From Eledone cirrhosa (lineage: Eukaryota): a DNA stretch of 64,000 nt. A program made the position numbers and the translations under genes. Position 1 is the stretch's first letter. The number at the start of each line of letters is the position of its first letter. This document shows positions 2,030 through 54,313 of this stretch, in pieces. The notes under the pieces are model-generated. The model was not told the origin of the DNA, did no database searches, and was given only the letters and a program-made list of their open reading frames with translations. The DNA lies in contig OZ024749.1 in assembly GCA_964016885.1 (NCBI GenBank), positions 6,200,001-6,264,000 on the forward strand. The letters are read 5' to 3'.

Positions 2030-2300
2030 TCAGGTCACCAGTTGGTGCTACTGGTAACATGTATCCCAGTACAACCTGTCCCATGGTCGGGTCGTTGGCG
2101 ACTAAACTGGCAACCCCACCAAGGTTTCTTGGTGTGGAGGGTGACTTTGGACATCCTGCAGGACTAAAAACAAAACCTGTCAAAGGGCAAAGGAGCTCTT
2201 AAGAGTCAATGGCCATCCAAAATCACCGGGAGAGATGACCCCTTAGCCTTTGTCAAGGCAGAATTCTAGGAGAAGGAAAACTCTGATATCACACCTGCAA
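2030..2300 (+). mobile_element. Probable LINE (RTE-type) 5' UTR fragment
   Basis: GC-richer segment with ...ggagaaggaaaactctga..., reminiscent of RTE/BovB-like 5' regions. No ORF support. Confidence 0.35.
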
Positions 2301-2507
2301 CCCTGATGATATCCAATGATGTTGACTTGTTCTTCTTTTTGGTAAATATCATCTTGGTTAAGAGAGTGGGACTGGCTTTGTGCAGTGCCTTTGTTCACTA
2401 TAAAAACTTCACGGCACAGGCATTGCTTTATATCTGGAGATCTCTCTGCACTTGTCGTCACATGGTACCATGGGCCCAGCACTATGTGTCAAATTGTCAC
2501 ATGTGTA

Positions 2508-3203
2508 GTGAACGGCAAAGCATAAACGAACTAAGGAAAAAATTAGAGATAAGAGGGATCAGATGTTGTTTACTCGAGAGAAGGCTACGTTGGTATGGAC
2601 ACGTGATGCGCATGAAAGTCGATAGCTGTATAACAAAGTGCAGGGCAATAAAGATAGACGGTAGTCACGGAATAGGCAGACCTAGAAAAACCTGGGACGA
2701 GCTGATAAACTCCGACATCACACACTTACACCTCTCCAAGACAATGTCACTGGACCGAGACCTTTGGCGGTACTCAGTAACAGAGAAGACCCGCCTTACC
2801 TAAATATATAGTAAAACCTACTCCAGCCAGTAGGCATCTCTAACAAAATACACCCCGTCCCACCACCACCACCCCCACCCGATCCACACCACCCCGTTCT
2901 ATGTAAAGTTATGTTGGTGCCGCGCCATCGAGGCCGAAACAAATGAGATCGTGTAGGTGTCACGACAAAAAAACACACAGTCCACGCTGTAATGTGGCCG
3001 TGTAGGCAACACGGTAAAAACCTCCCAGACCCACACTGTAAATGTGGTTGGTGTTAGGAAGGGCATCCAACTGTAGAAAACCTGCCAGACAGTCCTATGC
3101 GAGCAAGACAATCACTCTTGCCTCAAGTGGGACTACCCCCGTCCAAACCCATGCAAGCGTGGAACACGGACGTTAAACGTTGATGATGATGATGATGATG
3201 ATG
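2508..3203 (+). mobile_element. RTE LINE 3' fragment
   Basis: Near-identical to 15429-16035 ([16 protein letters not shown]...EKTRL), with full 3' UTR and (GAT)n tail. Confidence 0.95.
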
Positions 3204-3330
3204 TAGTGTTTGTACCAAAGTTTTCAAGTTGCTGGCCGGACTGAAAAGTCACACTCGTTCAGCGCATCGGTAGGGGTCCTCCTACATGGATATAAAGTAG
3301 TGGCCGTACTCGAAAACGAGTTGGCAGCCA

Positions 3331-3368
<38 letters not shown>

Positions 3369-3375
<7 letters not shown>

Positions 3376-3743
3376 TTAAAACAATGAAATTAAACACAAA
3401 ACTGTTAATTCATAGTAAAACACATTATTTTACGATCGTTTCTGGGGGGTAGTTCCCTGGATGTTCATTCAATTATTAATCTATGTAAAACATATTACAA
3501 AATATCATAGTGAGAAAAAAATACATACGTCTTTACTACCCGCCGTCTTCAGAAATAATCTAAAGACGGCGGGTAGTAAAGACGTATGTATCTTTTTCTC
3601 ACTATGATATTTTGTAATATGTTTTACATAGATCAATAATTGAATGAACATACACGGAACTACCCCCAAGAAACGATTGTAAAATAATGTGTTTTACTAT
3701 GAATTAACAGTTTTGTGTTTAATTTCATTGTTTTAATATTTCT
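3369..3743. repeat. Near-perfect 375-bp palindrome between (TA)n tracts
   Basis: Arms 3369-3549 and 3563-3743 are reverse complements with a few mismatches; 13-nt loop. Confidence 0.95.
3424..3559 (-). ncRNA. Type I hammerhead-like motif with ~100-nt helix II domain
   Basis: Minus strand: attattt-CTGAAGA-cggcgggtagt...(~80 nt)...actacccccca-GAAA-cgatcg-TA-aaataat. 7-bp helix I and palindromic helix III. Confidence 0.7.
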
Positions 3744-3765
3744 ATATATATATATATATATATAC

Positions 3766-3849
<84 letters not shown>

Positions 3850-13702: not shown

Positions 13703-13854
13703 GTATATATATATAGTATGTATATACTTATATACATATACATATATACACATATATATGTATATAGATACTTATATACATATACACTATATATATATGT
13801 ATATACATATACATATTTAATATACATATATATATATATATATGTATATATGTG

Positions 13855-13920
<66 letters not shown>

Positions 13921-13921
<1 letters not shown>

Positions 13922-15735
13922 TTAACGATGATGGCATACTTGCCATCACCGACACTGATAAGAAGGTAGCTTGGAAGTGTCACTATGAAAGGCTACTAAA
14001 TGAGGAGAATAAATGGGAGAAAGACAGTCTCCCCCATATCGACCCGATAGAGGGACCAGCAGTGTTAGTCGAGGGGAGTATAATAAGTAAGGCAATCAAG
14101 GATATGAAGACTGGTAAGGCGGCTGGGCCTTCGGAAATAGTTGCTGAGATGCTGAAGGCATCTGGCACGGTGGGACACACCATGGTCACCCGCATAGTTA
14201 ACCAAGTCGTACAGAATGGGGTTGTTCCGAAGGACTGGCATAGCAGCATCATCGTTAACTGTTATAAGGGTAAAGGAGACGCCCTAGATAGGAGTAACTA
14301 TAGAGGCATTAAATTAATCGACCAGGTCATGAAGGTCACGGAAAAAGTAATAGCGCAACTAATCAGAGAGAGAATTGATCTAGATGAAATGCAGTTCGGG
14401 TTTGTGTCAGGCAAAAGCACCACAGACGCTCTTTTCATAGTACGACAACTACAGGAGAAGTACCTAGCTAAAGGTAAACCCCTCTACTTAGCTTTTGTCG
14501 ACCTGGAGAAAGCCTTCGACAGAGTCCCCCGCTCCATTATCTGGTGGGCTCTTAGAAAACTAGGCGTTGACGAATGGCTTGTGAGGGCTATACAAGCCAT
14601 GTATAAAGAAACAGTCAGCAAGGTTAGAATTAACAACGAATATAGTGAAGAGTTTAGCGTAAAAGTTGGCGTCCATCAGGGCTCTGTTCTCAGCCCCCTA
14701 CTATTTATTATTGCCCTTCAGGCTATAACAGAGGAGTTCAAGACAGGCTGCCCATGGGAACTCCTATACGCAGACGACCTGACACTCATAGCGGAATCAA
14801 TGGCCGAGCTAGAGAAGAAATTCCAAACATGGAAGCACGGCCTAGAGTCAAAAGGACTTAAAATTAACCTGGCTAAGACCAAAGTTCTAGTTTGTAGGAA
14901 AGAAAACAAGGCGGCGGTCCCTTCTGGGAAATGGTCGTGCTCGGTATGTAGGAAAGGCGTAGGTAGAAACTCCATCTTATGTCCTAAATGCAAAGTATGG
15001 GTGCATAAAAGATGTAGTGGGATCACAGGTAAGCTAACTAAGAACATAGACTTTACATGTGGCCGGTGTTCTGGTGCAATAAGTAGCAGCAAGTGCCCAC
15101 AAAATACTAGCTCTTTCAATTGCGCAGAGGGTTTTATAGAAATAGTGGACAGCTTCCGTTACCTGGGCGATAAAATCAGCAGTGGGGGAGGGTGCTCTGA
15201 AAGTACTGTAGCTAGAGTCAGAACTGGTTGGAAAAAGTTCAGAGAGCTTATACCACTATTAGCTGCTAAAGGGTTCTCCCTAAAAATGAAAGGCAGGTTG
15301 TACGATGCCTGCATACGAACAGCAATGTTGCATGGTAGTGAGACCTGGGCATTGTGTGCAGAGGATATACGCAGACTAGAGAGGAACGAAGCTTGCATGC
15401 TCCGCTGGATGTGTAACAGTAATATACGTGAACGGCAAAGCATAAACGAACTAAGGAAAAAATTAGAGATAAGAGGGATCAGATGTTGTTTACTCGAGAG
15501 AAGGCTGCGTTGGTATGGACACGTGATGCGCATGAAAGTCGATAGCTGTATTACAAAGTGCAGGGCAATAAAGATAGACGGTAGCCACGGAATAGGCAGA
15601 CCTAGAAAAACATGGGATGAGCTGATAAACTCCGACCTCACACACTTACACCTCTCCAAGACAATGTCACTGGACCGTGACCTTTGGCGGTACTCAGTAA
15701 CAGAGAAGACCCGCCTTGCCAGTAGGCATCTCTAA
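13921..15735 (+). CDS. RTE LINE ORF fragment: reverse transcriptase with inserted PHD-like finger (APE endonuclease lost by 5' truncation)
   Basis: About 604 uninterrupted codons. The first 23 aa of the track ORF (13852) are translated TA repeat. Confidence 0.9.
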
Positions 15736-19290: not shown

Positions 19291-19664
19291 TCTTCTTACA
19301 CTGTTTTCTACTGCAGTAACACTTGATTACATTTTACCTTCTACTCAGTCTATATTATAATCTATTTAGAGTTGTTTGTTCGTCTGTCACACATGAATGT
19401 TGGAAGCTCACAAATTCATTTTAAAATGTTTATTTAGAATTTAGTAAAAGCAAGTTGAGAAAGGTGGCTGCATTTGCGTCAAATATTCTAAAATCTTTGC
19501 ATTCCTGATACCAGTAATGTCCGACTGTCACTGGGTCTCTTTCAAGAAATACATATATGTATATATAGTTTCAGAAGATCCCGTTAAGAGTAAAAGCAGC
19601 GATTCTTTGCTTATATATACATATATATATTTGTTGATATATATATTTAAATGATCTAATATAT

Positions 19665-19875
19665 GAAAATAGTCAGGACCCCAATTGGCTGAGCTCTGAC
19701 CATTTTGACAGCTAGATTCGAACTAAAGGCTTTAGTTCAGATCTAGCTGTTGTAACGGCCAGAGATCAGCCATTGCGGTCCTGACTATTTTCCTATTACC
19801 CACTCTACTACCCTAAGTATTGAGTACTTTGGAGGATTATGGTCTAGCTGGTTTTTACTTTTTACCACACCCTAT
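19665..19875 (+). mobile_element. Fold-back insert, half-hammerhead family
   Basis: Arms 19665-19728 and 19730-19792, then tail cctattacccactctactaccctaagtattgagta... Confidence 0.8.
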
Positions 19876-19956: not shown

Positions 19957-20343
19957 GCACATGGCTTAGTGGTTAGAGCATTGGGCTTGCAATCGAAAGG
20001 TTATGAGTTCAATTCTCAGACCGGGTGATGTGTTGTTTCCTTGTGCAAGACACTTTATTTCACATTGCTCCAGTTTACTCAGCTGTAGAAATGAGATGAT
20101 AGAGACTGGGGTCCATATCATTCCACTGCAAAGTGGTCGTGGAGGTGCCATGGCAAAAAAGCACCCAGCCCACACTGTAAAGTGGACGTGGAGGTGCCAC
20201 GGAAAAAAAGCACCCAGCACTCACTGTAAATGAGGTTGGTGTTAGGAAGGGCATCCAGCTGTAGAAATCAAGCCAGAATCAGTTCCCGTCCAACCTTTGC
20301 AAGCAGGGAAAAGCGGACATAAAATGATGATGATGATGATGAT
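19955..20343 (+). mobile_element. SINE A (two internal ~41-bp units)
   Basis: Family consensus match. Confidence 0.92.
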
Positions 20344-20542: not shown

Positions 20543-20731
20543 TCAGGATGGATTCAGTTTGAACCTGGTTAGTCCATTACTAAACTGAGTACTCAATACG
20601 TAGGGCAGTAGAGTATGGTAATATTATAAAAAGTCGGGACCCCGTCGGCTGAGCTCTTGTCTTTTTAAAGTTTGGAACTGTCTGTTGAAATGGGAAGAGC
20701 TCAGCTTTCAGGATCCCCACACTTTATAATA
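20543..20731 (-). mobile_element. Fold-back insert, half-hammerhead family (diverged)
   Basis: Tail motif tactcaata..gg(c)agtagagt..gtaata and inverted gctgagctct/agagctcagc arms. Confidence 0.65.
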
Positions 20732-20749
20732 TATATATATATATATAAT

Positions 20750-21094
20750 GGAGGCATATGGCTTACTGGTTAGAGCATTGGCCTTGATCGAAAGGTTGTG
20801 AGTTCAATTCTCAGACCGGGTGATGTGTTGTTTCCGTGAGCAAGACACTTTATTTCACATTGCTCCAGTTTACTCAGCTGTAGAAATGAGATGATAGGGA
20901 CTGGGGTCCATATCATTCCACTGCAAAGTGGTCGTGGAGGTGCAACGGCAAAAAAGCACCCAGCACTCACTGTAAATGAGGTTGGTGTTAGGAAGCGCAT
21001 CCAACTGTAGAAATCAAGCCAGAATCAGTTCCCGTCCCACCCTTGCAAGCAGGGAAAAAGCAGGCATAAAATGAAATGATGATGAGGATGATGA
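20750..21094 (+). mobile_element. SINE A
   Basis: Family consensus match. Confidence 0.92.
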
Positions 21095-29658: not shown

Positions 29659-32600
29659 ACCTAATACCCACAACCACTGATTCACTCTACCTCATGTCCA
29701 CCACCACTGATTCACTCCACCTAATGTCCACCACCACTGATTCACTCTACCTAATGTCCACCACCACTGATTCACTCCATCTAATGTCCACCACACCACC
29801 ACTGATTCACTCCACCTAATGTCCACCACACCACCACTGATTCACTCCACCTAATGTCCACCACACTACCACTGATTCACTCCACCTAATGTCCACCACA
29901 CCTCCACTGATTCACTCCACCTAATGTCCACCACACCACCACTGATTCACTCCACCTAATGTCCACCACACCTCCACTGATTCACTCCACTTAATGTCCA
30001 CCACACCACCACTGATTCACTCCACCTAATGTCCACCACCACTGATTCACTCCACCTAATGTCCACCACCACTGATTCACTCCACCTAATGTCCACCACC
30101 ACTGATTCACTCCACCTAATCTCCACCACACCACCACTGATTCACTTTACCTAATGTCCACCACACCACCACTGATTCACTCCCCCTAATGTCCACCACA
30201 CCACCACTGATTCACTCTACCTAATGACCACCACACAAACACTGATTCACTCTACCTAATGACCACCACACCACCACTGATTCACTCCACCTAATGTCCA
30301 CCACACCACCACTGATTCACTCCACCTAATGACCACCACACCACCACTGATTCACTCTACCTAATGACCACCACACCACCACTGATTCACTCCACCTAAT
30401 GTCCACCACACCACCACTGATTCACTCCACTTAATGTCCACCACACCACCACTGATTCACTCCACCTAATGTCCACCACACCACCACTGATTCACTCCAC
30501 CTAATGTCCACCACCACTGATTCCCTCCACCTAATGTCCACCACCACTGATTCACTCCACCTAATGTCCACCACCACTGATTCACTCCACCTAATGTCCA
30601 CCACCACTGATTCACTCCACCTAATGTCCACCACACCACCACTGATTCACTCCACCTAATCTCCACCACCACTGATTCACTCCACCTAATGTCCACCACC
30701 ACTGATTCACTCCACCTAATGTCCACCACACCACCACTGATTCACTCCACCTAATGTCCACCACACCACCACTGATTCACTCCACCTAATGTCCACCACA
30801 CCACCACTGATTCACTCCACCTAATGTCCACCACCACTGATTCACTCCACCTAATGTCCACCACCACTGATTCACTCCACCTAATGTCCACCACCACTGA
30901 TTCACTCCACCTAATGTCCACCACACAACCACTGATTCACTCCACCTAATCTCCACCACCACTGATTCACTCCACCTAATGTCCACCACACCACCACTGA
31001 TTCACTCCACCTAATGTCCACCACCACTGATTCACTCCACCTAATGTCCACCACCACTGATTCACTCCACCTAATGTCCACCACACCACCACTGATTCAC
31101 TCCACCTAATCTCCACCACCACTGATTCACTCCACCTAATGTCCACCACACCACCACTGATTCACTCCACCTAATGTCCACCACCACTGATTCACTCCAC
31201 CTAATGTCCACCACACCACCACTGATTCACTCCACCTAATGTCCACCACACCACCACTGATTCACTCCACCTAATGTCCACCACACCACCACTGATTCAC
31301 TCTACCTAATGACCACCACACCACCACTGATTCACTCCACCTAATGTCCACCACACCACCACTGATTCACTCCACCTAATGTCCACCACACCACCACTGA
31401 TTCACTCTACCTAATGACCACCACACCACCACTGATTCACTCCACCTAATGTCCACCACACCACCACTGATTCACTCTACCTAATGACCACCACACCACC
31501 ACTGATTCACTCCCCCTAATGTCCACCACACCACCACTGATTCACTCCACCTAATGTCCACCACACCACCACTGATTCACTCTACCTAATGACCACCACA
31601 CCACCACTGATTCACTCCCCCTAATGTCCACCACACCACCACTGATTCACTCCACCTAATGTCCACCACCACTGATTCACTCCACCTAATGTCCACCACA
31701 CCACCACTGATTCACTCTACCTCATGTCCACCACCACTGATTCCCTCCACCTAATGTCCACCACCACTGATTCACTCCACCTAATGTCCACCACACCACC
31801 ACTGATTCACTCCACCTAATGTCCACCACACCACCACTGATTCACTCCACCTAATGTCCACCACACCACCACTGATTCACTCCACCTAATGTCCACCACA
31901 CCACCACTGATTCACTCCACCTAATGTCCACCACACCACCACTGATTCACTCCACCTAATGTCCACCACACCACCACTGATTCACTCCACCTAATGTCCA
32001 CCACACCACCACTGATTCACTCTACCTAATGACCACCACACCACCACTGATTCACTCTACCTAATGACCACCACACCACCACTGATTCACTCCACCTAAT
32101 GACCACCACACCACCACTGATTCACTCCACCTAATGTCCACCACACCACCACTGATTCACTTTACCTAATGTCCACCACACCACCACTGATTCACTCTAC
32201 CTAATGTCCACCACACCACCACTGATTCACTCTACCTAATGACCACCACACCACCACTGATTCACTCCACCTAATGTCCACCACACCACCACTGATTCAC
32301 TCTACCTAATGACCACCACACCACCACTGATTCACTCCACCTAATGTCCACCACACCACCACTGATTCACTCTACCTAATGACCACCACACCACCACTGA
32401 TTCACTCCACCTAATGTCCACCACACCACCACTGAGTCACTCTACCTAATGTCCACCACACCACCACTGATTCCCTCCACCTAATGTCCACCACCACTGA
32501 TTCACTCCACCTAATGTCCACCACACCACCACTGATCCACTCCACCTAATGTCCACCACACCACCACTGATTCACTCTACCTAATGACCACCACACCACC

Positions 32601-35600
32601 ACTGATTCACTCCACCTAATGTCCACCACACCACCACTGAGTCACTCTACCTAATGTCCACCACACCACCACTGATTCCCTCCACCTAATGTCCACCACC
32701 ACTGATTCACTCCACCTAATGTCCACCACACCACCACTGATTCACTCTACCTAATGACCACCACACCACCACTGATTCACTCCACCTAATGTCCACCACA
32801 CCACCACTGATTCACTCCACCTAATGTCCACCACACCACCACTGATTCACTCCACCTAATGTCCACCACACCACCACTGATTCACTTTACCTAATGAGCA
32901 CCACACCACCACTGATTCACTCCACCTAATGTCCACCACACCACCACTGATTCACTCCACCTAATGTCCACCACCACTGATTCACTCTACCTAATGACCA
33001 CCACACCACCACTGATTCACTCCACCTAATGTCCACCACACCACCACTGATTCACTTTACCTAATGTCCACCACACCACCACTGATTCCCTCCACCTAAT
33101 GTCCACCACACCACCACTGATTCACTCCACCTAATGTCCACCACACCACCACTGATTCACTCCACCTAATGTCCACCACACCACCACTGATTCACTCCAC
33201 CTAATGTCCACCACACCACCACTGATTCACTCCACCTAATGTCCACCACACCACCACTGATTCACTCCACCTAATGTCCACCACACCACCACTGATTCAC
33301 TTTACCTAATGACCACCACACCACCACTGATTCACTCCACCTAATGTCCACCACACCACCACTGATTCACTCCACCTAATGTCCACCACACCACCACTGA
33401 GTCACTCTACCTAATGTCCACCACACCACCACTGATTCACTCCACCTAATGTCCACCACACCACCACTGATTCACTTTACCTAATGACCACCACACCACC
33501 ACTGATTCACTCCACCTAATGTCCACCACACCACCACTGATTCACTCCACCTAATGTCCACCACACCACCACTGATTCACTCCACCTAATGTCCACCACA
33601 CCACCACTGATTCACTCCACCTAATGTCCACCACACCACCACTGATTCACTCCACCTAATGTCCACCACACCACCACTGATTCACTCCACCTAATGTCCA
33701 CCACACCACCACTGATTCACTCCACCTAATGTCCACCACACCACCACTGATTCACTCCACCTAATGTCCACCACACCACCACTGATTCACTCCACCTAAT
33801 GTCCACCACACCACCACTGATTCACTTTACCTAATGACCACCACACCACCACTGATTCACTCCACCTAATGTCCACCACACCACCACTGATTCACTCCAC
33901 CTAATGTCCACCACACCACCACTGAGTCACTCTACCTAATGTCCACCACACCACCACTGATTCCCTCCACCTAATGTCCACCACCACTGATTCACTCCAC
34001 CTAATGTCCACCACACCACCACTGATTCACTCCACCTAATGTCCACCACACCACCACTGATTCACTCCACCTAATGTCCACCACACCACCACTGATTCAC
34101 TCCACCTAATGTCCACCACCACTGATTCACTCCACCTAATGTCCACCACACCACCACTGATTCACTCTACCTAATGACCACCACACCACCACTGATTCAC
34201 TCCACCTAATGTCCACCACACCACCACTGATTCACTCCACCTAATGTCCACCACACCACCACTGATTCACTCCACCTAATGTCCACCACACCACCACTGA
34301 TTCACTCCACCTAATGTCCACCACACCACCACTGATTCACTCCACCTAATGTCCACCACCACTGATTCACTCCACCTAATGTCCACCACACCACCACTGA
34401 TTCACTCTACCTAATGACCACCACACCACCACTGATTCACTCCACCTAATGACCACCACACCACCACTGATTCACTCCACCTAATGTCCACCACCACTGA
34501 TTCACTCCACCTAATGTCCACCACACCACCACTGATTCACTCTACCTAATGACCACCACACCACCACTGATTCACTCCACCTAATGTTCACCACACCACC
34601 ACTGATTCACTCCACCTAATGTCCACCACACCACCACTGATTCCCTCCACCTAATGTCCACCACCACTGATTCACTCCACCTAATGTCCACCACACCACC
34701 ACTGATTCACTCCACCTAATGTCCACCACACCACCACTGATTCCCTCCACCTAATGTCCACCACCACTGATTCACACCACCTAATGTCCACCACACCACC
34801 ACTGATTCACTCCACCTAATGTCCACCACACCACCACTGATTCCCTCCACCTAATGTCCACCACCACTGATTCACTCCACCTAATGTCCACCACACCACC
34901 ACTGATTCACTCCACCTAATGACCACCACACCACCACTGATTCCCTCCACCTAATGTCCACCACCACTGATTCACACCACCTAATGTCCACCACACCACC
35001 ACTGATTCACTCCACCTAATGACCACCACACCACCACTGATTCCCTCCAACTAATGTCCACCACCACTGATTCACTCCACCTAATGTCCACCACACCACC
35101 ACTGATTCACTCCACCTAATGTCCACCACACCACCACTGATTCCCTCCACCTAATGTCCACCACCACTGATTCACTCCACCTAATGTCCACCACACCACC
35201 ACTGATTCACTCCACCTAATGTCCACCACCACTGATTCACTCCACCTAATGTCCACCACACCACCACTGATTCACTCCACCTAATGTCCACCACACCACC
35301 ACTGATTCCCTCCACCTAATGTCCACCACCACTGATTCACTCCACCTAATGTCCACCACACCACCACTGATTCACTCCACCTAATGTCCACCACCACTGA
35401 TTCACCCCACCTAATGTCCACCACACCACCACTGATTCACTCCACCTAATGTCCACCACACCACCACTGATTCACTCCACCTAATGTCTACCACACCACC
35501 ACTGATTCACTCTACCTAATGACCACCACACCACCACTGATTCACTCAACCTAATGTCCACCACACCACCACTGATTCACTCAACCTAATGTCCACCACA

Positions 35601-38600
35601 CCACCACTGATTCACTCCACCTAATGTCCACCACACCACCACTGATTCACTCAACCTAATGTCCACCACACCACCACAGATTCACTCCACCTAATGTCCA
35701 CCACCACTGATTCACTCCACCTAATGTCCACCACACCACCACTGATTCACTCTACCTAATGTCCACCACCACTGATTCACCCCACCTAATGTCCACCACA
35801 CCTCCACTGATCCACTCCACCCAATGTCCACCACCACTGATTCACTCCACCTAATGTCCACCACACCACCACTGATCCACTCCACCTAATGTCCACCACC
35901 ACTGATTCACCCCATCTAATGTCCACCACACCACCACTGATTCACTCCACCTAATGTCCACCACCACTGATTCACTCCACCTAATGTCCACCACCACTGA
36001 TTCACTCCACCTAATGTCCACCACACCACCACTGATTCACTCCACCTAATGTCCACCACCACTGATTCACCCCACCTAATGTCCACCACACCACCACTGA
36101 TTCACTCCACCTAATGTCCACCACCACTGATTCACTCCACCTAATGTCCACCACCACTGATTCACTCCACCTAATGTCCACCACCACTGATTCACTCCAC
36201 CTAATGTCCACCACACCACCACTGATTCACTCCACCTAATGTCCACCACACCACCACTGATTCACTCCACCTAATGTCCACCACACCACCACTGATTCAC
36301 TCCACCTAATGTCCACCACACCACCACTGATTCACTCCACCTAATGTCCACCACCACTGATTCACTCCACCTAATGTCCACCACCACTGATTCACTCCAC
36401 CTAATGTCCACCACCACTGATTCACTCCACCTAATGTCCACCACACAACCACTGATTCACTCCACCTAATCTCCACCACCACTGATTCACTCCACCTAAT
36501 GTCCACCACACCACCACTGATTCACTCCACCTAATGTCCACCACCACTGATTCACTCCACCTAATGTCCACCACCACTGATTCACTCCACCTAATGTCCA
36601 CCACACCACCACTGATTCACTCCACCTAATCTCCACCACCACTGATTCACTCCACCTAATGTCCACCACACCACCACTGATTCACTCCACCTAATGTCCA
36701 CCACCACTGATTCACTCCACCTAATGTCCACCACACCACCACTGATTCACTCCACCTAATGTCCACCACACCACCACTGATTCACTCCACCTAATGTCCA
36801 CCACACCACCACTGATTCACTCTACCTAATGACCACCACACCACCACTGATTCACTCCACCTAATGTCCACCACACCACCACTGATTCACTCCACCTAAT
36901 GTCCACCACACCACCACTGATTCACTCTACCTAATGACCACCACACCACCACTGATTCACTCCACCTAATGTCCACCACACCACCACTGATTCACTCTAC
37001 CTAATGACCACCACACCACCACTGATTCACTCCCCCTAATGTCCACCACACCACCACTGATTCACTCCACCTAATGTCCACCACACCACCACTGATTCAC
37101 TCTACCTAATGACCACCACACCACCACTGATTCACTCCCCCTAATGTCCACCACACCACCACTGATTCACTCCACCTAATGTCCACCACCACTGATTCAC
37201 TCCACCTAATGTCCACCACACCACCACTGATTCACTCTACCTCATGTCCACCACCACTGATTCCCTCCACCTAATGTCCACCACCACTGATTCACTCCAC
37301 CTAATGTCCACCACACCACCACTGATTCACTCCACCTAATGTCCACCACACCACCACTGATTCACTCCACCTAATGTCCACCACACCACCACTGATTCAC
37401 TCCACCTAATGTCCACCACACCACCACTGATTCACTCCACCTAATGTCCACCACACCACCACTGATTCACTCCACCTAATGTCCACCACACCACCACTGA
37501 TTCACTCCACCTAATGTCCACCACACCACCACTGATTCACTCTACCTAATGACCACCACACCACCACTGATTCACTCTACCTAATGACCACCACACCACC
37601 ACTGATTCACTCCACCTAATGACCACCACACCACCACTGATTCACTCCACCTAATGTCCACCACACCACCACTGATTCACTTTACCTAATGTCCACCACA
37701 CCACCACTGATTCACTCTACCTAATGTCCACCACACCACCACTGATTCACTCTACCTAATGACCACCACACCACCACTGATTCACTCCACCTAATGTCCA
37801 CCACACCACCACTGATTCACTTTACCTAATGACCACCACACCACCACTGATTCACTCCACCTAATGTCCACCACACCACCACTGATTCACTCCACCTAAT
37901 GTCCACCACACCACCACTGATTCACTCTACCTAATGTCCACCACACCACCACTGATTCACTCTACCTAATGACCACCACACCACCACTGATTCACTCCAC
38001 CTAATGTCCACCACACCACCACTGATTCACTCTACCTAATGACCACCACACCACCACTGATTCACTCCACCTAATGTCCACCACACCACCACTGATTCAC
38101 TCTACCTAATGACCACCCCACCACCACTGATTCACTCCACCTAATGTCCACCACACCACCACTGAGTCACTCTACCTAATGTCCACCACACCACCACTGA
38201 TTCCCTCCACCTAATGTCCACCACCACTGATTCACTCCACCTAATGTCCACCACACCACCACTGATTCACTCTACCTAATGACCACCACACCACCACTGA
38301 TTCACTCCACCTAATGTCCACCACACCACCACTGAGTCACTCTACCTAATGTCCACCACACCACCACTGATTCCCTCCACCTAATGTCCACCACCACTGA
38401 TTCACTCCACCTACTGTCCACCACACCACCACTGATTCACTCTACCTAATGACCACCACACCACCACTGATTCACTCCACCTAATGTCCACCACACCACC
38501 ACTGATTCACTCCACCTAATGTCCACCACACCACCACTGATTCACTCCACCTAATGTCCACCACACCACCACTGATTCACTTTACCTAATGAGCACCACA

Positions 38601-41600
38601 CCACCACTGATTCACTCCACCTAATGTCCACCACACCACCACTGATTCACTCCACCTAATGTCCACCACCACTGATTCACTCTACCTAATGACCACCACA
38701 CCACCACTGATTCACTCCACCTAATGTCCACCACACCACCACTGATTCACTTTACCTAATGTCCACCACACCACCACTGATTCCCTCCACCTAATGTCCA
38801 CCACACCACCACCGATTCACTCCACCTAATGTCCACCAGACCACCACTGATTCACTCCACCTAATGTCCACCACACCACCACTGATTCACTCCACCTAAT
38901 GTCCACCACACCACCACTGATTCACTCCACCTAATGTCCACCACACCACCACTGATTCACTCCACCTAATGTCCACCACACCACCACTGATTCACTTTAC
39001 CTAATGACCACCACACCACCACTGATTCACTCCACCTAATGTCCACCACACCACCACTGATTCACTCCACCTAATGTCCACCACACCACCACTGAGTCAC
39101 TCTACCTAATGTCCACCACACCACCACTGATTCACTCCACCTAATGTCCACCACACCACCACTGATTCACTTTACCTAATGACCACCACACCACCACTGA
39201 TTCACTCCACCTAATGTCCACCACACCACCACTGATTCACTCCACCTAATGTCCACCACACCACCACTGATTCACTCCACCTAATGTCCACCACACCACC
39301 ACTGATTCACTCCACCTAATGTCCACCACACCACCACTGATTCACTCCACCTAATGTCCACCACACCACCACTGATTCACTCCACCTAATGTCCACCACA
39401 CCACCACTGATTCACTCCACCTAATGTCCACCACACCACCACTGATTCACTCCACCTAATGTCCACCACACCACCACTGATTCACTCCACCTAATGTCCA
39501 CCACACCACCACTGATTCACTTTACCTAATGACCACCACACCACCACTGATTCACTCCACCTAATGTCCACCACACCACCACTGATTCACTCCACCTAAT
39601 GTCCACCACACCACCACTGAGTCACTCTACCTAATGTCCACCACACCACCACTGATTCCCTCCACCTAATGTCCACCACCACTGATTCACTCCACCTAAT
39701 GTCCACCACACCACCACTGATTCACTCCACCTAATGTCCACCACACCACCACTGATTCACTCCACCTAATGTCCACCACACCACCACTGATTCACTCCAC
39801 CTAATGTCCACCACACCACCACTGATTCACTCCACCTAATGTCCACCACCACTGATTCACTCCACCTAATGTCCACCACACCACCACTGATTCACTCTAC
39901 CTAATGACCACCACACCACCACTGATTCACTCCACCTAATGTCCACCACACCACCACTGATTCACTCCACCTAATGTCCACCACACCACCACTGATTCAC
40001 TCCACCTAATGTCCACCACACCACCACTGATTCACTCCACCTAATGTCCACCACCACTGATTCACTCCACCTAATGTCCACCACACCACCACTGATTCAC
40101 TCTACCTAATGACCACCACACCACCACTGATTCACTCCACCTAATGACCACCACACCACCACTGATTCACTCCACCTAATGTCCACCACCACTGATTCAC
40201 TCCACCTAATGTCCACCACACCACCACTGATTCACTCTACCTAATGACCACCACACCACCACTGATTCACTCCACCTAATGTCCACCACACCACCACTGA
40301 TTCACTCCACCTAATGTCCACCACACCACCACTGATTCCCTCCACCTAATGTCCACCACCACTGATTCACTCCACCTAATGTCCACCACACCACCACTGA
40401 TTCACTCCACCTAATGTCCACCACACCACCACTGATTCCCTCCACCTAATGTCCACCACCACTGATTCACACCACCTAATGTCCACCACACCACCACTGA
40501 TTCACTCCACCTAATGTCCACCACACCACCACTGATTCACTCCACCTAATGTCCACCACACCACCACTGATTCCCTCCACCTAATGTCCACCACCACTGA
40601 TTCACTCCACCTAATCTCCACCACACCACCACTGATTCACTCCACCTAATGTCCACCACACCACCACTGATTCCCTCCACCTAATGTCCACCACCACTGA
40701 TTCACTCCACCTAATGTCCACCACACCACCACTGATTCACTCCACCTAATGTCCACCACCACTGATTCACCCCACCTAATGTCCACCACACCACCACTGA
40801 TTCACTCCACCTAATGTCCACCACACCACCACTGATTCACTCCACCTAATGTCCACCACACCACCACTGATTCACTCTACCTAATGACCACCACACCACC
40901 ACTGATTCACTCAACCTAATGTCCACCACACCACCACTGATTCACTCAACCTAATGTCCACCACACCACCACTGATTCACTCCACCTAATGTCCACCACA
41001 CCACCACTGATTCACTCAACCTAATGTCCACCACACCACCACAGATTCACTCCACCTAATGTCCACCACCACTGATTCACTCCACCTAATGTCCACCACA
41101 CCACCACTGATTCACTCTACCTAATGTCCACCACCACTGATTCACCCCACCTAATGTCCACCACACCTCCACTGATCCACTCCACCCAATGTCCACCACC
41201 ACTGATTCACTCCACCTAATGTCCACCACACCACCACTGATCCACTCCACCTAATGTCCACCACCACTGATTCACCCCATCTAATGTCCACCACACCACC
41301 ACTGATTCACTCCACCTAATGTCCACCACCACTGATTCACTCCACCTAATGTCCACCACCACTGATTCACTCCACCTAATGTCCACCACACCACCACTGA
41401 TTCACTCCACCTAATGTCCACCACCACTGATTCACCCCACCTAATGTCCACCACACCACCACTGATTCACTCCACCTAATGTCCACCACCACTGATTCAC
41501 TCCACCTAATGTCCACCACCACTGATTCACTCCACCTAATGTCCACCACACCACCACTGATCCACTCCACCTAATGTCCACCACCACTGATTCACCCCAC

Positions 41601-44562
41601 CTAATGTCCACCACACCACCACTGATTCACTCCACCTAATGTCCACCACCACTGATTCACTCCACCTAATGTCCACCACCACTGATTCACTCCACCTAAT
41701 GTCCACCACACCACCACTGATCCACTCCACCTAATGTCCACCACCACTGATTCACTCCACCTAATGTCCACCACCACTGATTCACTCCACCTAATGTCCA
41801 CCACACCACCACTGATTCACTCCACCTAATGTCCACCACACCACCACTGATTCACTCCACCTAATGTCCACCACACCACCACTGATTCACTGCACCTAAT
41901 GTCCACCACCACTGATTCACTCCACCTAATGTCCACCACCACTGATTCACTCCACCTAATGTCCACCACCACTGATTCACTCCACCTAATGTCCACCACC
42001 ACTGATTCACTCCACCTAATGTCCACCACACCACCACTGATTCACTCCACCTAATGTCCACCACCACTGATTCACTCCACCTAATGTCCACCACACCACC
42101 ACTGATTCACTCCACCTAATGTCCACCACCACTGATTCACTCCACCTAATGTCCACCACCACTGATTCACTCCACCTAATGTCCACCACACCACCACAGA
42201 TTCACTCCACCTAATGTCCACCACACCACCACTGATCCACTCCACCTAATGTCCACCACACCACCACTGATTCACTGCACCTAATGTCCACCACACCACC
42301 ACTGATTCACTCCACCTAATGTCCACCACACCACCACAGATTCACTCCACCTAATGTCCACCACACCACCACAGATTCACTCCACCTAATGTCCACCACA
42401 CCACCACTGATCCACTCCACCTAATGTCCACCACACCACCACTGATTCACTCCACCTAATGTCCACCACACCACCACTGATCCACTCCACCTAATGTCCA
42501 CCACACCACCACTGATTCACTCCACCTAATGTCCACCACACCAACACTGATTCACTCCACCTAATGTCCACCACACCACCACTGACCCACTCCACCTAAT
42601 GTCCACCACACCACCACTGATTCACTCCACCTAATGTCCACCACACCAACACTGATTCACTCCACCTAATGTCCACCACACCACCACTGACCCACTCCAC
42701 CTAATGTCCACCACACCACCACTGATTCACTCCACCTAATGTCCACCACACCACCACTGACCCACTCCACCTAATGTCCACCACACCACCACTGATTCAC
42801 TCCACCTAATGTCCACCACACCACCACTGACTCACTCCACCTAATGTCCACCACCACTGATTCACTCCACCTAATGTCCACCACACCACCACTGATTCAC
42901 TCCACCTAATGTCCACCACACCACCACTGACCCACTCCACCTAATGTCCACCACACCACCACTGATTCACTCCACCTAATGTCCACCACACCACCACTGA
43001 TCCACTCCACCTAATGTCCACCACCACTGATTCACCCCACCTAATGTCCACCACACCACCACTGATTCACTCCACCTAATGTCCACCACCACTGATTCAC
43101 TCCACCTAATGTCCACCACCACTGATTCACTCCACCTAATGTCCACCACCACTGATTCACTCCACCTAATGTCCACCACACCACCACTGATTCACTCCAC
43201 CTAATGTCCACCACACCACCACTGATTCACTCCACCTAATGTCCACCACCACTGATTCACTCCACCTAATGTCCACCACCACTGATTCACTCCACCTAAT
43301 GTCCACCACCACTGATTCACTCCACCTAATGTCCACCACCACTGATTCACTCCACCTAATGTCCACCACCACTGATTCACTCCACCTAATGTCCACCACA
43401 CCACCACTGATTCACTCCACCTAATGTCCACCACACCACCACTGATCCACTCCAACTAATGTCCACCACCACTGATTCACCCCACCTAATGTCCACCACA
43501 CCACCACTGATTCACTCCACCTAATGTCCACCACCACTGATCCACTCCACCTAATGTCCACCACCACTGATTCACCCCACCTAATGTCCACCACACCACC
43601 ACTGATTCACTCCACCTAATGTCCACCACCACTGATTCACCCCACCTAATGTCCACCACACCACCACTGATTCACTCCACCTAATGTCCACCACCACTGA
43701 TTCACTCCACCTAATGTCCACCACCACTGATTCACTCCACCTAATGTCCACCACCACTGATTCACTCCACCTAATGTCCACCACACCACCACTGATTCAC
43801 TCCACCTAATGTCCACCACACCACCACTGATTCACTCCACCTAATGTCCACCACCACTGATTCACTCCACCTAATGTCCACCACCACTGATTCACTCCAC
43901 CTAATGTCCACCACCACTGATTCACTCCACCTAATGTCCACCACCACTGATTCACCCCACCTAATGTCCACCACACCACCACTGATTCACTCCACCTAAT
44001 GTCCACCACCACTGATTCACTCCACCTAATGTCCACCACCACTGATTCACTCCACCTAATGTCCACCACCACTGATTCACTGCACCTAATGTCCACCACC
44101 ACTGATTCACTGCACCTAATGCCCACCACCACTGATTCACTCCACCTAATGTCCACCACACCACCACTGATTCACTCCACCTAATGTCCACCACACCACC
44201 ACTGATTCACTCAACCTAATGTCCACCACACCACCACTGATTCACTCTACCTAATGTCCACCACACCACCACTGATTCACTCCACCTAATGTCCACCACA
44301 CCACCACTGATTAACACCACCTAATGTCCACCACACCACCACTGATTCACTCCACCTAATGTCCACCACACCACCACTGATTCACTCCACCTAATGTCCA
44401 CCACACCACCACTGATTCACTCCACCTAATGTCCACCACCACTGATTCACTCCACCTAATGTCCACCACCACTGATTCACTCCACCTAATGTCCACCACA
44501 CCACCACTGATTAACACCACCTAATGTCCACCACACCACCACTGATTCACTCTACCAAATGT
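29659..44562. repeat. 14.9-kb satellite of mixed 30-bp and 35-bp units, CCACCACTGATTCACTCCACCTAATGTCCA(CCACA)
   Basis: Continuous tandem array of roughly 440-450 units with recurring point variants. Confidence 0.99.
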
Positions 44563-45253: not shown

Positions 45254-45375
45254 TTTTACGGCCATATGACGCTGAAAACATCGGTTCTTGTCCGATCACC
45301 GAAGTTAAGCAAAGTCGAGCCTAGTTAGTACTTAGATGGGTGGCCGCTTGGGAACCCTAGGTGCCGTAAGCATTT
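45254..45375 (+). pseudogene. 5S rRNA retrocopy, essentially full length with several substitutions
   Basis: tacggccata..acgctgaaaaca.cggttct.gtccgatcaccgaagttaagca...gttagtactt.gatgggtg.ccgcttgggaa...gtgccgtaagcattt matches animal 5S; solitary copy. Confidence 0.92.
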
Positions 45376-50749: not shown

Positions 50750-52430
50750 ATATCCTAAAGGAACTTAGGAAAAAATATCGTAAAACCAACCATGATAATT
50801 TAGAATCCATAAACTTTGAAGCTCCTGAGATTATGTCAAAACTTGGCATCGGAAAAAAGACCGAACCATTCCTCCCAAGAACTCCGAGGATAAATCTCAA
50901 GGATCACAAAAACAATTTTCGTACTGAACTACCTGTTAGATTAATCGCCCCCTCTAAATCAGATCTGGGCGTTGTTAGTAAAGCCATCTTGGATAGAATT
51001 ATCCCACAGGTTCGTTCTAATTGTTCTTCTTTGAACTTAAATTTATGGTTTGGTACTTCTGAAGTGATTGGCTGGTTCAACAAATTGAATAATAAAAACA
51101 AACTAAAATTTGTTCAATTTGATATTGCCAGCTACTATTCTTCTATTTCGCCTTCACTTCTCAACAATGCTCTATCTTTCGCACTTACATATTCTGACAT
51201 CACCACAGATGAACTTCACATCATTCTCACCGCACGTAAAACCATCCTAGAATTCAACAATGAATATTGGACCAGAGCTGATACCTCTAACAACTAAACA
51301 TCACAATGGGAGCATCCGATTCATCCCAATTGACATATTTAATTGGTATCTTTATTTTGAACTCTTTGATTCGGAAAATTCCTCAACTTCGCGGTGAAAT
51401 TTATCGTGACAATGGACTCTTTACTATCTTAAATTGCAACTTAGTTAACCTTAATATTATTAAGAACAATATACGTAATCTCTTTAACCAACATAACTTA
51501 AAAATTGAATTTGATAACAGCATCAAACTAGCTAATTTCTTGGATGTATCTCTTAATCTTGACACTGGCCTACATGAGGGAGGGAAGCATTTATTTAAGG
51601 CACTAAAGAATAATATTCCTAAATTATTCTTTAGTGCCTTAAATAAATGATTCCCTCCCTCACATATCTATAGTAAAATATTTAACAAACACACTATAAA
51701 CTTTTCCTATTCGACATCCTCCAACATTTCCAACATTATCTCTAAACACAACAATAAAATACTAAATACTAAATCTCTTCCTTCCAACACTGAATATCAT
51801 AATAATAGTAATAGTACTCCCGACGTCATTGTAAACCCTAGGCTAACTTCTGCAAACCCAAATACAACGTCAAACACAACTTCGGTAAATGTTCTTAATC
51901 CCATTCTAAATCAAGAAACTATTATTCCTATCGCAAATAACTTCTCCAATCCAATTCCTTCTATAGATAACACTAGGTCACTCGTTAATAATCTCTCTAA
52001 TCGCAATTGCCCTGTTAAAAATAAATGTCCTCTCAACAACCATTGTCTTGATAAAAACTTAATCTACGAATGTAAAGTTATAACTGACACCAATTCCTTC
52101 ACCTATTTTGGCTCCACTTCAACCTCCTTTAAAGCTCGTCTTTATAATCATCATTCGTCTTTTAAATACCAACTTAAAAGAACCAACACGGCTCTCTCAG
52201 AACTCATATGGTCCTTGAAAGACAAAAATATTAAATATAACATCTCTTGGAAAAAGGTTTGTTCTGCTTCTTCACCCTTGAACAGTTCTCTATCCAAGAC
52301 TTGCAATCTCTGTCTAAATGAAAAATTTACCATTATATCTAATTTAGATTCTATAATAAATAGACGCACTGACTTGTTTTCTCTCTGCTTGCATAAATTC
52401 CACAGAACATTCCACAAAGTATACAGCTAA
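50750..52430 (+). pseudogene. PLE RT/GIY-YIG ORF (5'-truncated, stop plus frameshift near 51295, in-frame TGA at 51648, deletion in thumb)
   Basis: Track ORFs 50596-51297, 51306-51650 and 52215-52430. The last two are in one frame, interrupted only by TGA 51648-51650. Confidence 0.85.
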
Positions 52431-53552: not shown

Positions 53553-53556
<4 letters not shown>

Positions 53557-53721
53557 GTAAGTTACCAGTTGGACCATAACGTACTCGATACTGGGTAGTA
53601 GAGTGGGTAATAGGATAAGAGTCAGTACCCCGACGGGTGAGCTCCGGCCATTTCGATAACTAGGTCTGAACGTTCAGAGCTAGCTGTCAAAACGGCCAGA
53701 GCTCACCTGACTCGTTTCCTA
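53553..53721 (-). mobile_element. Fold-back insert, half-hammerhead family
   Basis: Same tail as the 19.7-kb and 54.2-kb copies; palindrome centred on ctgaacgttcag. Confidence 0.78.
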
Positions 53722-53737
53722 TATTTATATATATATA

Positions 53738-54069
53738 TCATCATCATCATCATTTTACGTCCGCTTTTCCCTGCTTGCAAGGGTTGGACGACAACTGATT
53801 CTGGCTTGATTTCTACAGCTGGATGCCCTTCCTAACACCAACCTCATTTACAGTCAGTGCTGGGTGCTTTTTTTTCCGTGGCACCTCCACGACAACTTTG
53901 CAGTGGAATGATATGGACCCCAGTCCCTATCATCTCATTTCTACAGCTGAGTAAACTGGAGCAATGTGAAATAAAGTGTCTTGCTCAAGGAAACAACACA
54001 TCACCCAGTCTGAGAATTGAACTCACAACCTTTCGATTGCAAGGCCAATGCACTAAGCCATGTGCCTCC
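53738..54069 (-). mobile_element. SINE A
   Basis: Family consensus match, reverse strand. Confidence 0.92.
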
Positions 54070-54108
54070 ATACCTAGTTTCCTTCTATCCACTGTGTATA
54101 TATATATA

Positions 54109-54308
54109 ACAAAGGAATTGTGGTAAGGAACCAGATGGACCATAACGCACCAGATTACTCAATATTTAGGGTAGTAGAGTGGGTAATAGGAAAAGGTATG
54201 ACCCCGACGGCAGAGCTCAAGCCGTTTTGATGGCTATTTCTGGACTAGAAATAGTCCAGAAATAGCCGTCGAAACGGCTTGAGCTCTGCCGTCGGGGTCA
54301 TACCTTTT

Positions 54309-54313
<5 letters not shown>
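54109..54313 (-). mobile_element. Fold-back insert, half-hammerhead family (best-preserved copy)
   Basis: 62-bp arms 54186-54247 and 54252-54313 with a GAAA loop; contains GAAA-cggc ttgagctct gccg-TC-gggg. Confidence 0.85.

What the first reader, a model, noticed from the sequence alone, without database searches (positions are those of the whole stretch)
54109..54313. Half-hammerhead hairpins: four independent copies fold back in the position of helix II
Seen: copies at 19665-19875, 20543-20731, 53553-53721 and 54109-54313 share a tail. The best copy carries GAAA-cggc/gccg-TC-gggg (helix III, GUC cleavage triplet, 3' strand of helix I). None has CUGANGA; instead the palindrome axis lies just 5' of GAAA, where helix II would be, and the axis sequence differs among copies. 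Inference: the cDNA self-primed on the helix II hairpin, repeatedly deleting the catalytic strand and producing a mirror arm. This would be a structure-templated origin for PLE inversions. Such RNAs might also act as trans substrates.
Basis: partly seen in the sequence, partly recalled or inferred. Interest (0 to 1): 0.75.

Follow-up and report, generated by a model that had tools for sequence, protein, structure and literature searches.

The report
Twin-primed Penelope hairpins split a hammerhead
These hairpins are four of more than 16,000 short mirror-image scraps of a Penelope-type jumping gene whose long copies carry a complete hammerhead ribozyme motif; they likely form when two DNA copies run off the start of the RNA, which appears to lie inside the ribozyme, and are joined head to head, rather than by fold-back on a ribozyme stem.

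Summary
The four hairpins are real. They belong to a family of at least 16,236 head-to-head insertions in (TA)n, derived from an autonomous Hydra-type Penelope-like retrotransposon (3,531-bp unit, 784-aa open frame). Self-priming on helix II is not supported: its predicted product has 0 exact matches, arm ends pile up against one edge inside loop II, the tail-less arm is often the longer, some partners are other families, and long inversions fold kilobases away. Best model: two target-primed cDNAs start at fixed sites (+61, +141), run off the RNA 5' end and are end-joined. That end is likely a capped transcription start within loop II (conserved TYAGT, excess non-templated G at -1), leaving the 5' copy of the RNA with half a ribozyme. 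No RNA data confirm this start. Inverted Penelope ends with a one-sided tail are known, and this scan noted similar palindromes in other genomes; the start-inside-ribozyme reading was not found in my searches.

The parts
54109..54313 (-). Copy A: short head-to-head insertion of a Hydra-type PLE in (TA)n
   Evidence: 40 of 40 scored genome candidates match it at 94-100%; matches the autonomous unit +1..+144 and +1..+61
54106..54185 (-). Tail, unit +62..+141: the stretch between the short and the long reverse-transcription start; in tandem units it runs on into the open frame
   Evidence: loose ends followed by (AT)n at both sites in public contigs
54186..54246 (-). Tail-bearing arm, unit +1..+61; GAAA decayed to AAAA
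   Evidence: (87.5% to the young unit)
54247..54252 (+). Junction filler AGAAAT, a likely templated copy of the adjacent arm
   Evidence: sequence; fillers at 17 of 50 junctions
54253..54313 (+). Tail-less mirror arm, unit +1..+61, starting at the A of AGTCC (inferred RNA start) and ending at CCTAT (short start site)
   Evidence: 88.5%
54261..54297 (+). 3' half of the hammerhead: helix II 3' strand, GAAA 54271-54274, helix III with palindromic GAGCTC loop, GUC 54291-54293, helix I 3' strand GGGG
   Evidence: alignment to read-through copies and pair counts; fold
19661..19875 (+). Copy B, older B/C-type subfamily; +1 at 19734, axis about 19725-19733
53553..53721 (-). Copy C, B/C type; loop-less join GAAC|GTTC at 53671/53672; 11-nt deletion in the mirror arm
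20543..20731 (-). Copy D, most divergent subfamily (read-through relatives have canonical CUGAUGA); junction partly deleted

Best explanation
The hairpins are short insertions of an autonomous Hydra-type Penelope-like retrotransposon, likely made by two target-primed cDNAs that run off the 5' end of the element's RNA and are joined head to head, with that 5' end predicted to be a transcription start inside loop II of the element's hammerhead. Shown: the arms and tail are the first 141 nt of a 3,531-bp tandem unit that encodes RT plus GIY-YIG; insertion ends fall at two fixed sites (+61 CCTAT, +141 GTTAT), usually one of each, in (TA)n; inner ends pile up against an edge at +1; read-through copies carry the whole hammerhead motif. 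Inferred: the endonuclease cuts both strands of (TA)n; each 3' end primes RT, one at +61 and one at +141, usually on the same RNA or RNP; when priming is on the repeat copy at the RNA's 5' end the cDNAs are only about 60 and 140 nt long and end at the cap; their 3' ends are joined by microhomology, bluntly or with templated or A-rich filler. Priming on the downstream repeat copy gives the long head-to-head insertions with axes anywhere in the unit. Consequence (inferred): the 5' copy of the RNA lacks UUGAnAA and cannot self-cleave in cis; only the downstream read-through copy holds a complete ribozyme. Odds by step: PLE origin 0.98; two cDNAs rather than fold-back 0.8; edge is a capped transcription start 0.65-0.7.
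For: Parent: 784-aa open frames in tandem units 3,531 bp apart; arm and tail sit 230 nt upstream of the first Met and run into the frame. Two ends: 48 of 50 palindromes have the tail on one side only; young long insertions end at 61 on one side and 144 on the other (L432/L433, L434) with inner junctions at 3389/1634, 2570/2986, 2281/318. Edge: of 100 arms in the first 50 listed palindromes 86 end at or downstream of +1, 13 at -1..-3, 1 at -7; in 90 copies picked by tail alone, 66 of 121 arm ends lie at -4..+8, 2 further upstream, 53 downstream, and 9 copies read through (10 copies dropped, tail arm deleted). A full-length unit (L431/L314) ends at +1 and is joined to a mirror arm +1..+61. Two cDNAs: tail-less arm longer in 18, tail arm in 23, equal in 9 of 50, 25 vs 13 vs 12 of 50; tail-less arm longer by kilobases in L247, L249, L250, L253 of 14 long loci; 4 joins to another hammerhead family at that family's own AGTT start and 2 to endonuclease-coding pieces among 30 loci; 22 microhomology, 11 blunt, 17 filler junctions; A-runs facing T-runs in many long junctions. 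Start site: TYAGT conserved at 95-100% per column in an otherwise variable loop; base at -1 in 17,544 AATT-type arms is T 11,236, G 2,929, C 2,812, A 567, and after removing contexts explained by the partner arm or template G 1,704, C 803, A at most 567; locally G 15, C 9, A 2, T 53 of 79 non-abutting arms against 6% G at -2..-6, and 0 G in 57 read-through arms. Extra G marks capped 5' ends in L1 (PMC11702581, passage). A PLE protein cuts and extends both strands and starts at two internal sites in vitro (PMC11167929, parts 1-2 of 4 read).
Against: No RNA data: the one RNA run offered holds 7% of the words and all runs are contigs, so the start site and capping are inferred only. The two arms are usually of one haplotype (28 of 50 identical against 6.5 by chance; only 2 discordant for common haplotypes), as fold-back also predicts. 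The G excess is modest (2-3 fold over C or A), arms starting at +2 show G too (8 of 25), and arms of one insertion are not independent. About a third of arm ends lie downstream of GAAA, so much trimming must be assumed. TYAG also reads as a 3' splice site. One of 50 long junctions resembles a helix II snap-back (C1:154641499). The heterologous joins were picked by a CTGANGA pattern, so their frequency is unknown. In D. virilis Penelope the start lies upstream of the hammerhead (PMC2377424 section 15 and passages; PMC4209133 part 2), so this layout is not general. Automatic arm-end calls contain some visible errors.
Confidence: 0.65

Rival explanations
1. Two cDNAs are joined as above, but the edge at +1 is not a transcription start: RT stalls in the helix II structure, or the RNA is cut or spliced there.
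For: The edge lies inside a long predicted stem-loop; about one copy in eight reads through, as a leaky roadblock allows; TYAG fits a splice acceptor.
Against: Most arms cross the whole 9-bp lower stem before ending; the edge sits at the same motif although the local fold differs between subfamilies (inside the upper stem in A types, unpaired in B/C); excess G at -1; no constant exon sequence in the fillers and T, not G, follows AG.
Confidence: 0.14
2. One cDNA primed at the tail end runs to the RNA 5' end, snaps back on itself by microhomology and is resolved by the endonuclease at +61 (self-priming and endonuclease-resolution ideas of Arkhipova 2013 and Craig 2021).
For: Arms share haplotype far above chance; microhomology and templated fillers fit snap-back; proposed in PMC3846280 (Discussion passage) and PMC8557442 (passages).
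Against: It predicts that the tail arm always reaches further 5'; it does not. It cannot give loop-less joins with both arms ending at +2 (L215; window copy C), foreign partners, or long pairs whose inner ends differ by kilobases.
Confidence: 0.12
3. One reading: the cDNA crosses loop II and self-primes on the helix II hairpin, deleting the catalytic strand.
For: Helix II is real and long; the axis lies in it; 1 of 50 long junctions looks like such a product after CpG decay.
Against: 0 exact matches to the predicted lower-stem product (AAAT-type subfamilies only); almost no arm enters the loop apex; palindromes of other hammerhead families at 6 loci fold 55-76 or 209 nt upstream of an intact core.
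Confidence: 0.06
4. The palindrome is itself a small mobile element copied as a unit, with the centre mutated later by palindrome centre-breaks.
For: Top hits match the whole 205 nt incl. similar loops.
Against: Those hits were ranked by likeness to the query; unselected junctions vary widely, arm variants track the autonomous subfamilies, and long and short insertions share the same ends.
Confidence: 0.03

Closest known systems
Hydra-clade Penelope-like elements (Craig et al. 2021, PMC8557442; section 11 and passages read, supplements not opened)
   Same: Single ORF with RT and C-terminal GIY-YIG; RWR/DKT, CxCx5C linker, no CCHH, CxxC and CxH; (TA)n targets; hammerhead in the repeat; tandem and inverted 5'-truncated copies with a one-sided tail.
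   Different: Unit 3.5 kb (most Hydra under 3 kb); tail 80 nt instead of 30-40; core mostly U3-A8; helix II about 50 nt with an internal loop and helix III of 5 bp.
Inverted pLTR plus tail insertions of Adineta vaga Penelopes (Arkhipova et al. 2013, PMC3846280; passages read)
   Same: Head-to-head inverted repeat with the tail on one arm; TATA/Inr-like motifs in the pLTR; self-priming proposed.
   Different: Here thousands of junctions allow a test, and they favour two cDNAs over self-priming; solo short palindromes are the commonest product.
PAc Poseidon internal initiation (Frangieh et al. 2024, PMC11167929; parts 1-2 of 4 read)
   Same: Two internal RT start sites bounding the tail, both target strands cut and extended, AT-rich target, hammerhead upstream of the start sites.
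   Different: Other clade; the parts read do not tie the two sites to inversions; there priming has no homology to the target, here both sites end in TAT.
PLE hammerheads incl. the U3-A8 variant of Schistosoma Cercyon (Cervera and de la Pena 2014, PMC4209133; parts 1-2 of 4 read)
   Same: Type I hammerhead in the pLTR, palindromic loop 3, U3-A8 core covariation, motifs in opposite strands close together.
   Different: Not minimal: helix III of 5 bp; C3-G8 and U3-A8 occur in one family; most genomic copies hold only the 3' half.
L1 twin priming (as described in PMC11702581, passages read)
   Same: Second target end primes a second cDNA; inner ends joined by NHEJ/MMEJ; extra G at full-length 5' ends.
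   Different: In L1 the two cDNAs copy adjacent parts of the RNA; here they copy the same part from two fixed sites, which gives a palindrome.

Membership tests
EN+ Penelope-like element | One ORF with RT and GIY-YIG endonuclease | tested here: met
   784-aa frame with YRDD and VIY...YIG. Pfam gave no hit for the fragments tried; 1,103 unnamed relatives of about 700 aa.
EN+ Penelope-like element | Tandem or partial-tandem units forming pseudo-LTRs; inverted 5'-truncated copies; one-sided tail | tested here: met
   tail on one side in 48 of 50
Hydra clade | RWK-like and DKT motifs; CxCx5C linker; no CCHH; CxxC and CxH around E and N | tested here: met
   RWR 104, DKT 184, CNCPDRSIC 639, one Cys between VIY and YIG, CNLC 737, CKH 765 against section 11 of PMC8557442
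Hydra clade | (TA)n insertion | tested here: met
Hydra clade | Falls within Hydra on an RT tree | not tested
   no named reference set was fetched
Neptune/Nematis clades | CX2-5CxxC linker and CCHH motif | tested here: not met
Type I hammerhead ribozyme (read-through copies) | Core YUGAnRA ... GAAA ... NUH with the 3-8 pair kept | tested here: met
   71 distinct copies: 64 U3-A8, 5 C3-G8, 2 mixed; pair kept in 41 of 43
Type I hammerhead ribozyme (read-through copies) | Helices I-III with compensatory changes | tested here: met
   94.6% of cells paired, 5 pairs with two-sided changes, covariation 0.201 against 0.112 shuffled and at most 0.077 slid (related sequences inflate this); three-way junction is the predicted fold for 3 of 4 copies, not for the D-type copy, and only 2 of 4 beat shuffles
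Type I hammerhead ribozyme (read-through copies) | Self-cleavage after GUC | not testable with these tools
   needs an assay; no clear excess of arm ends at the cut site (9 of 121 at +39..+44)
Type I hammerhead ribozyme (the four window copies) | Catalytic 5' strand present | tested here: not met
Non-LTR retrozyme | Short non-coding head-to-tail tandem units, each with a whole hammerhead | tested here: not met
   short copies are head-to-head half motifs; the tandem unit is coding; definition from 10.64898/2026.07.22.740005 part 1

The most novel reading that the evidence does not exclude
This retrotransposon uses its transcription start as a ribozyme switch: Pol II starts inside loop II of its own hammerhead, so the 5' end of the RNA carries a disarmed half-ribozyme while the downstream copy is whole; and the 16,000+ palindromes are strong-stop run-off products showing that every Penelope insertion is made by two RTs priming both target ends at two fixed sites, which explains inversions and the one-sided tail across PLEs.
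Probability: 0.4. Interest if true: 0.7.

Novelty: new variant of a known kind. Interest (0 to 1): 0.47.

Why it matters
How Penelope-like elements make their inverted ends and one-sided tail is an open question named in the papers read. This family gives thousands of junctions that separate the models and point to two-ended priming with run-off at the RNA start. If the start lies inside the hammerhead, it also suggests why a self-cutting motif can sit at the front of an mRNA that must stay whole. The family has young intact copies, so both points can be tested directly.

Tried and rejected
Rfam scan found no hammerhead in the window among the 150 of 410 listed matches. A search for CUGANGA upstream of the A/B-type arm gave 48 matches; none of the 30 read was an intact ribozyme of this family (junction filler, foreign partners or chance), because the core is UUGAnAA. 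Similarity-ranked hits suggested a constant loop; this was ascertainment bias (vs 23). An ATG in the tail looked like the ORF start but is out of frame. I first took the parent for Neptune; motifs say Hydra. A TATA-like box at about -30 is present in A types but not B/C types, so it is not used as support. Public runs could not show RNA starts: one RNA run with a small share, the rest contigs of unknown library. No peak of arm ends at the ribozyme cut site. Pfam did not recognise the RT fragments. Paper searches found no report of a PLE start site inside the hammerhead or of junction statistics like these; the library lacks most subscription papers and no supplements were opened. In the plant retrozyme NbRZ1 the mapped start lies upstream of the ribozyme (PMC12029980, passages).

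Full report
Observation. Each reads (TA)n - mirror arm - junction - arm - tail - (TA)n, and they are 70-80% alike. In the 54109 copy the + strand carries GAAA (54271-54274), CGGC/GCCG around a GAGCTC loop, GUC (54291-54293) and GGGG. None has CUGANGA. The window lies in a 3.0-Gb genome (G000); each copy retrieves 2,200-3,800 candidate places, of which 40 were scored per query. An exact palindrome pattern has 16,236 matches with 4-34 nt between the anchors and 1,349 with 35-65 nt, against 0 for reversed controls.

The intact ribozyme. A CUGANGA search gave 48 matches, and none of the 30 read was an intact motif of this family. Copies picked by their tail alone then showed a sense-strand continuation upstream of the arm: CCCC UUGA(C/A)AA G, a 9-nt strand pairing with AAAUAGCCG, a long loop II, then the arm. 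That core has 1,893 exact matches; the older types have 232 matches to a looser pattern, some with canonical CUGAnGA. Among 71 distinct read-through copies 64 are U3-A8, 5 C3-G8 and 2 mixed. On 43 aligned copies 94.6% of cells pair, and the 3-8 pair and three helix II pairs change on both sides (relatedness inflates these measures). The three-way junction is the predicted fold in 3 of 4 copies tested, though only 2 beat shuffles. U3-A8 is a described PLE variant (PMC4209133). So the arms are the 3' half of a real hammerhead motif, and the axis is in loop II. Cleavage is untested.

The parent. Read-through copies lead upstream into a 3' UTR and an endonuclease domain. A protein search returned many 784-aa open frames, often in tandem at 3,531 bp. 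With the A of AGTCC as +1, GUC ends at +41, the short insertion end (CCTAT) is +61, the long one (GTTAT) +141 and the first Met +232. The protein has RWR, DKT, YRDD, CxCx5C, VIY...YIG without CCHH, CxxC and CxH, the features listed for the Hydra clade (PMC8557442 section 11). No tree was built.

Where the arms end. In the first 50 listed palindromes, 86 of 100 arms end at or downstream of +1, 13 at -1 to -3 and one at -7 (the pattern forces at least 8 nt of arm). Junctions show microhomology (22), blunt joins (11) or filler (17). In 90 copies chosen by tail sequence only, 10 could not be scored, 9 read through, and of 121 arm ends 66 lie at -4..+8, 11 at +9..+18, 42 further downstream and 2 upstream (a second method gave 62 mirror, 16 no mirror, 11 read-through, 1 no arm; both contain some miscalls). 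So there is a hard upstream edge with a trimmed tail behind it. A full-length unit ends at the same +1 and is joined to a mirror arm +1..+61 (L314/L431).

Test of helix II self-priming. The cDNA would have to cross loop II and the 5' strand and then copy itself. The exact product has 0 matches for the finding's own subfamily type. Of 50 long junctions listed, most hold local duplications or A/T runs; one (C1:154641499) resembles a decayed snap-back. Palindromes of other hammerhead families at 6 loci fold 55-76 or 209 nt upstream of an intact core, and long inversions of this element have their axis anywhere in the unit. Helix II is therefore not what sets the axis.

One cDNA or two. Fold-back of a tail-primed cDNA makes the tail arm always the longer. 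The tail-less arm was longer in 18 of 50 (tail arm 23, equal 9) and in 25 of 50 (tail arm 13, within 2 nt 12), and by kilobases in 4 of 14 long loci. Among the 30 loci, four join the arm head to head to another hammerhead family at that family's AGTT start and two to endonuclease-coding pieces. Young arrays end at 61 on one side and 144 on the other; 48 of 50 short copies have one tail. Against this, the arms usually share a haplotype (28 of 50, 6.5 by chance, 2 discordant), so both cDNAs mostly come from one RNA or one source. A PLE protein cuts and extends both strands from two internal sites in vitro and is predicted to be a dimer (PMC11167929).

What the edge is. TYAGT is 95-100% conserved per column in a variable loop and fits an initiator TCAKTY (consensus recalled). 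The base before +1 in 17,544 AATT-type arms is T 11,236 (4,017 plainly read-through), G 2,929, C 2,812, A 567; removing contexts explained by the partner arm or template leaves G 1,704, C 803, A at most 567. Locally G stands at -1 in 15 of 79 non-abutting arms, against 6% at -2..-6 and 0 of 57 read-through arms. An extra G marks capped 5' ends of full-length L1 insertions (PMC11702581). This is indirect; the public runs could not show RNA starts. A structural stall, a cut or a splice boundary remain possible.

Comparison and novelty. Inverted truncated copies, a one-sided tail and (TA)n targeting are known for PLEs (PMC8557442); self-priming at palindromes was proposed in 2013 (PMC3846280); Penelope starts within its pLTR from an internal promoter, upstream of its hammerhead (PMC2377424; PMC4209133). 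This scan noted similar palindromes and a short-end/long-end rule in other genomes. New here, as far as reach: junction statistics that favour two cDNAs over fold-back, and a likely RNA start inside loop II that leaves the 5' copy with half a ribozyme. Supplements of these papers were not opened and may list this family.

Verdict. Interest 0.47.

Noticed in passing
window 50752-52412 (+): Fragment of another Hydra-like PLE, 28-48% identical to the parent protein.
   Followed up: no
window 29669-44562: 15-kb satellite, 443 copies of a 35-bp C-rich unit, 91% matches.
   Followed up: no
window 45254-45372 (+): 5S rRNA copy, 89.9 bits, next to the satellite.
   Followed up: no
window 13768-15735 (+): 655-aa frame with RVT_1 followed by a PHD finger, a LINE fragment.
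   Followed up: no
window about 19958-20330, 20750-21080, 53735-54070: A 300-370-nt dispersed repeat, SINE-like, lies beside three of the four hairpins.
   Followed up: no
L005, L014, L087, L102, L118, L157; family X in L106, L115, L127, L134, L154: Several other families with intact canonical hammerheads form the same head-to-head insertions; family X also begins at an AGTT motif about 110 nt upstream of its core.
   Followed up: partly
L291, L295, L391, L402, L421, L423: Junction fillers of A-runs facing T-runs, as if both cDNA ends were A-tailed or slipped on a U-run before joining.
   Followed up: partly
L321:1200-1340: The short start site (+61) lies directly 3' of the extended helix I in the predicted fold, so the ribozyme fold may position priming.
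   Followed up: no
L107, L118, L126: Three-part insertions: a palindrome of another family broken inside its hammerhead and continued by this family's arm, suggesting template jumps between families.
   Followed up: no
G000:C2:338339386-338471421: Four identical read-through copies 43-45 kb apart, probably a large tandem duplication.
   Followed up: no
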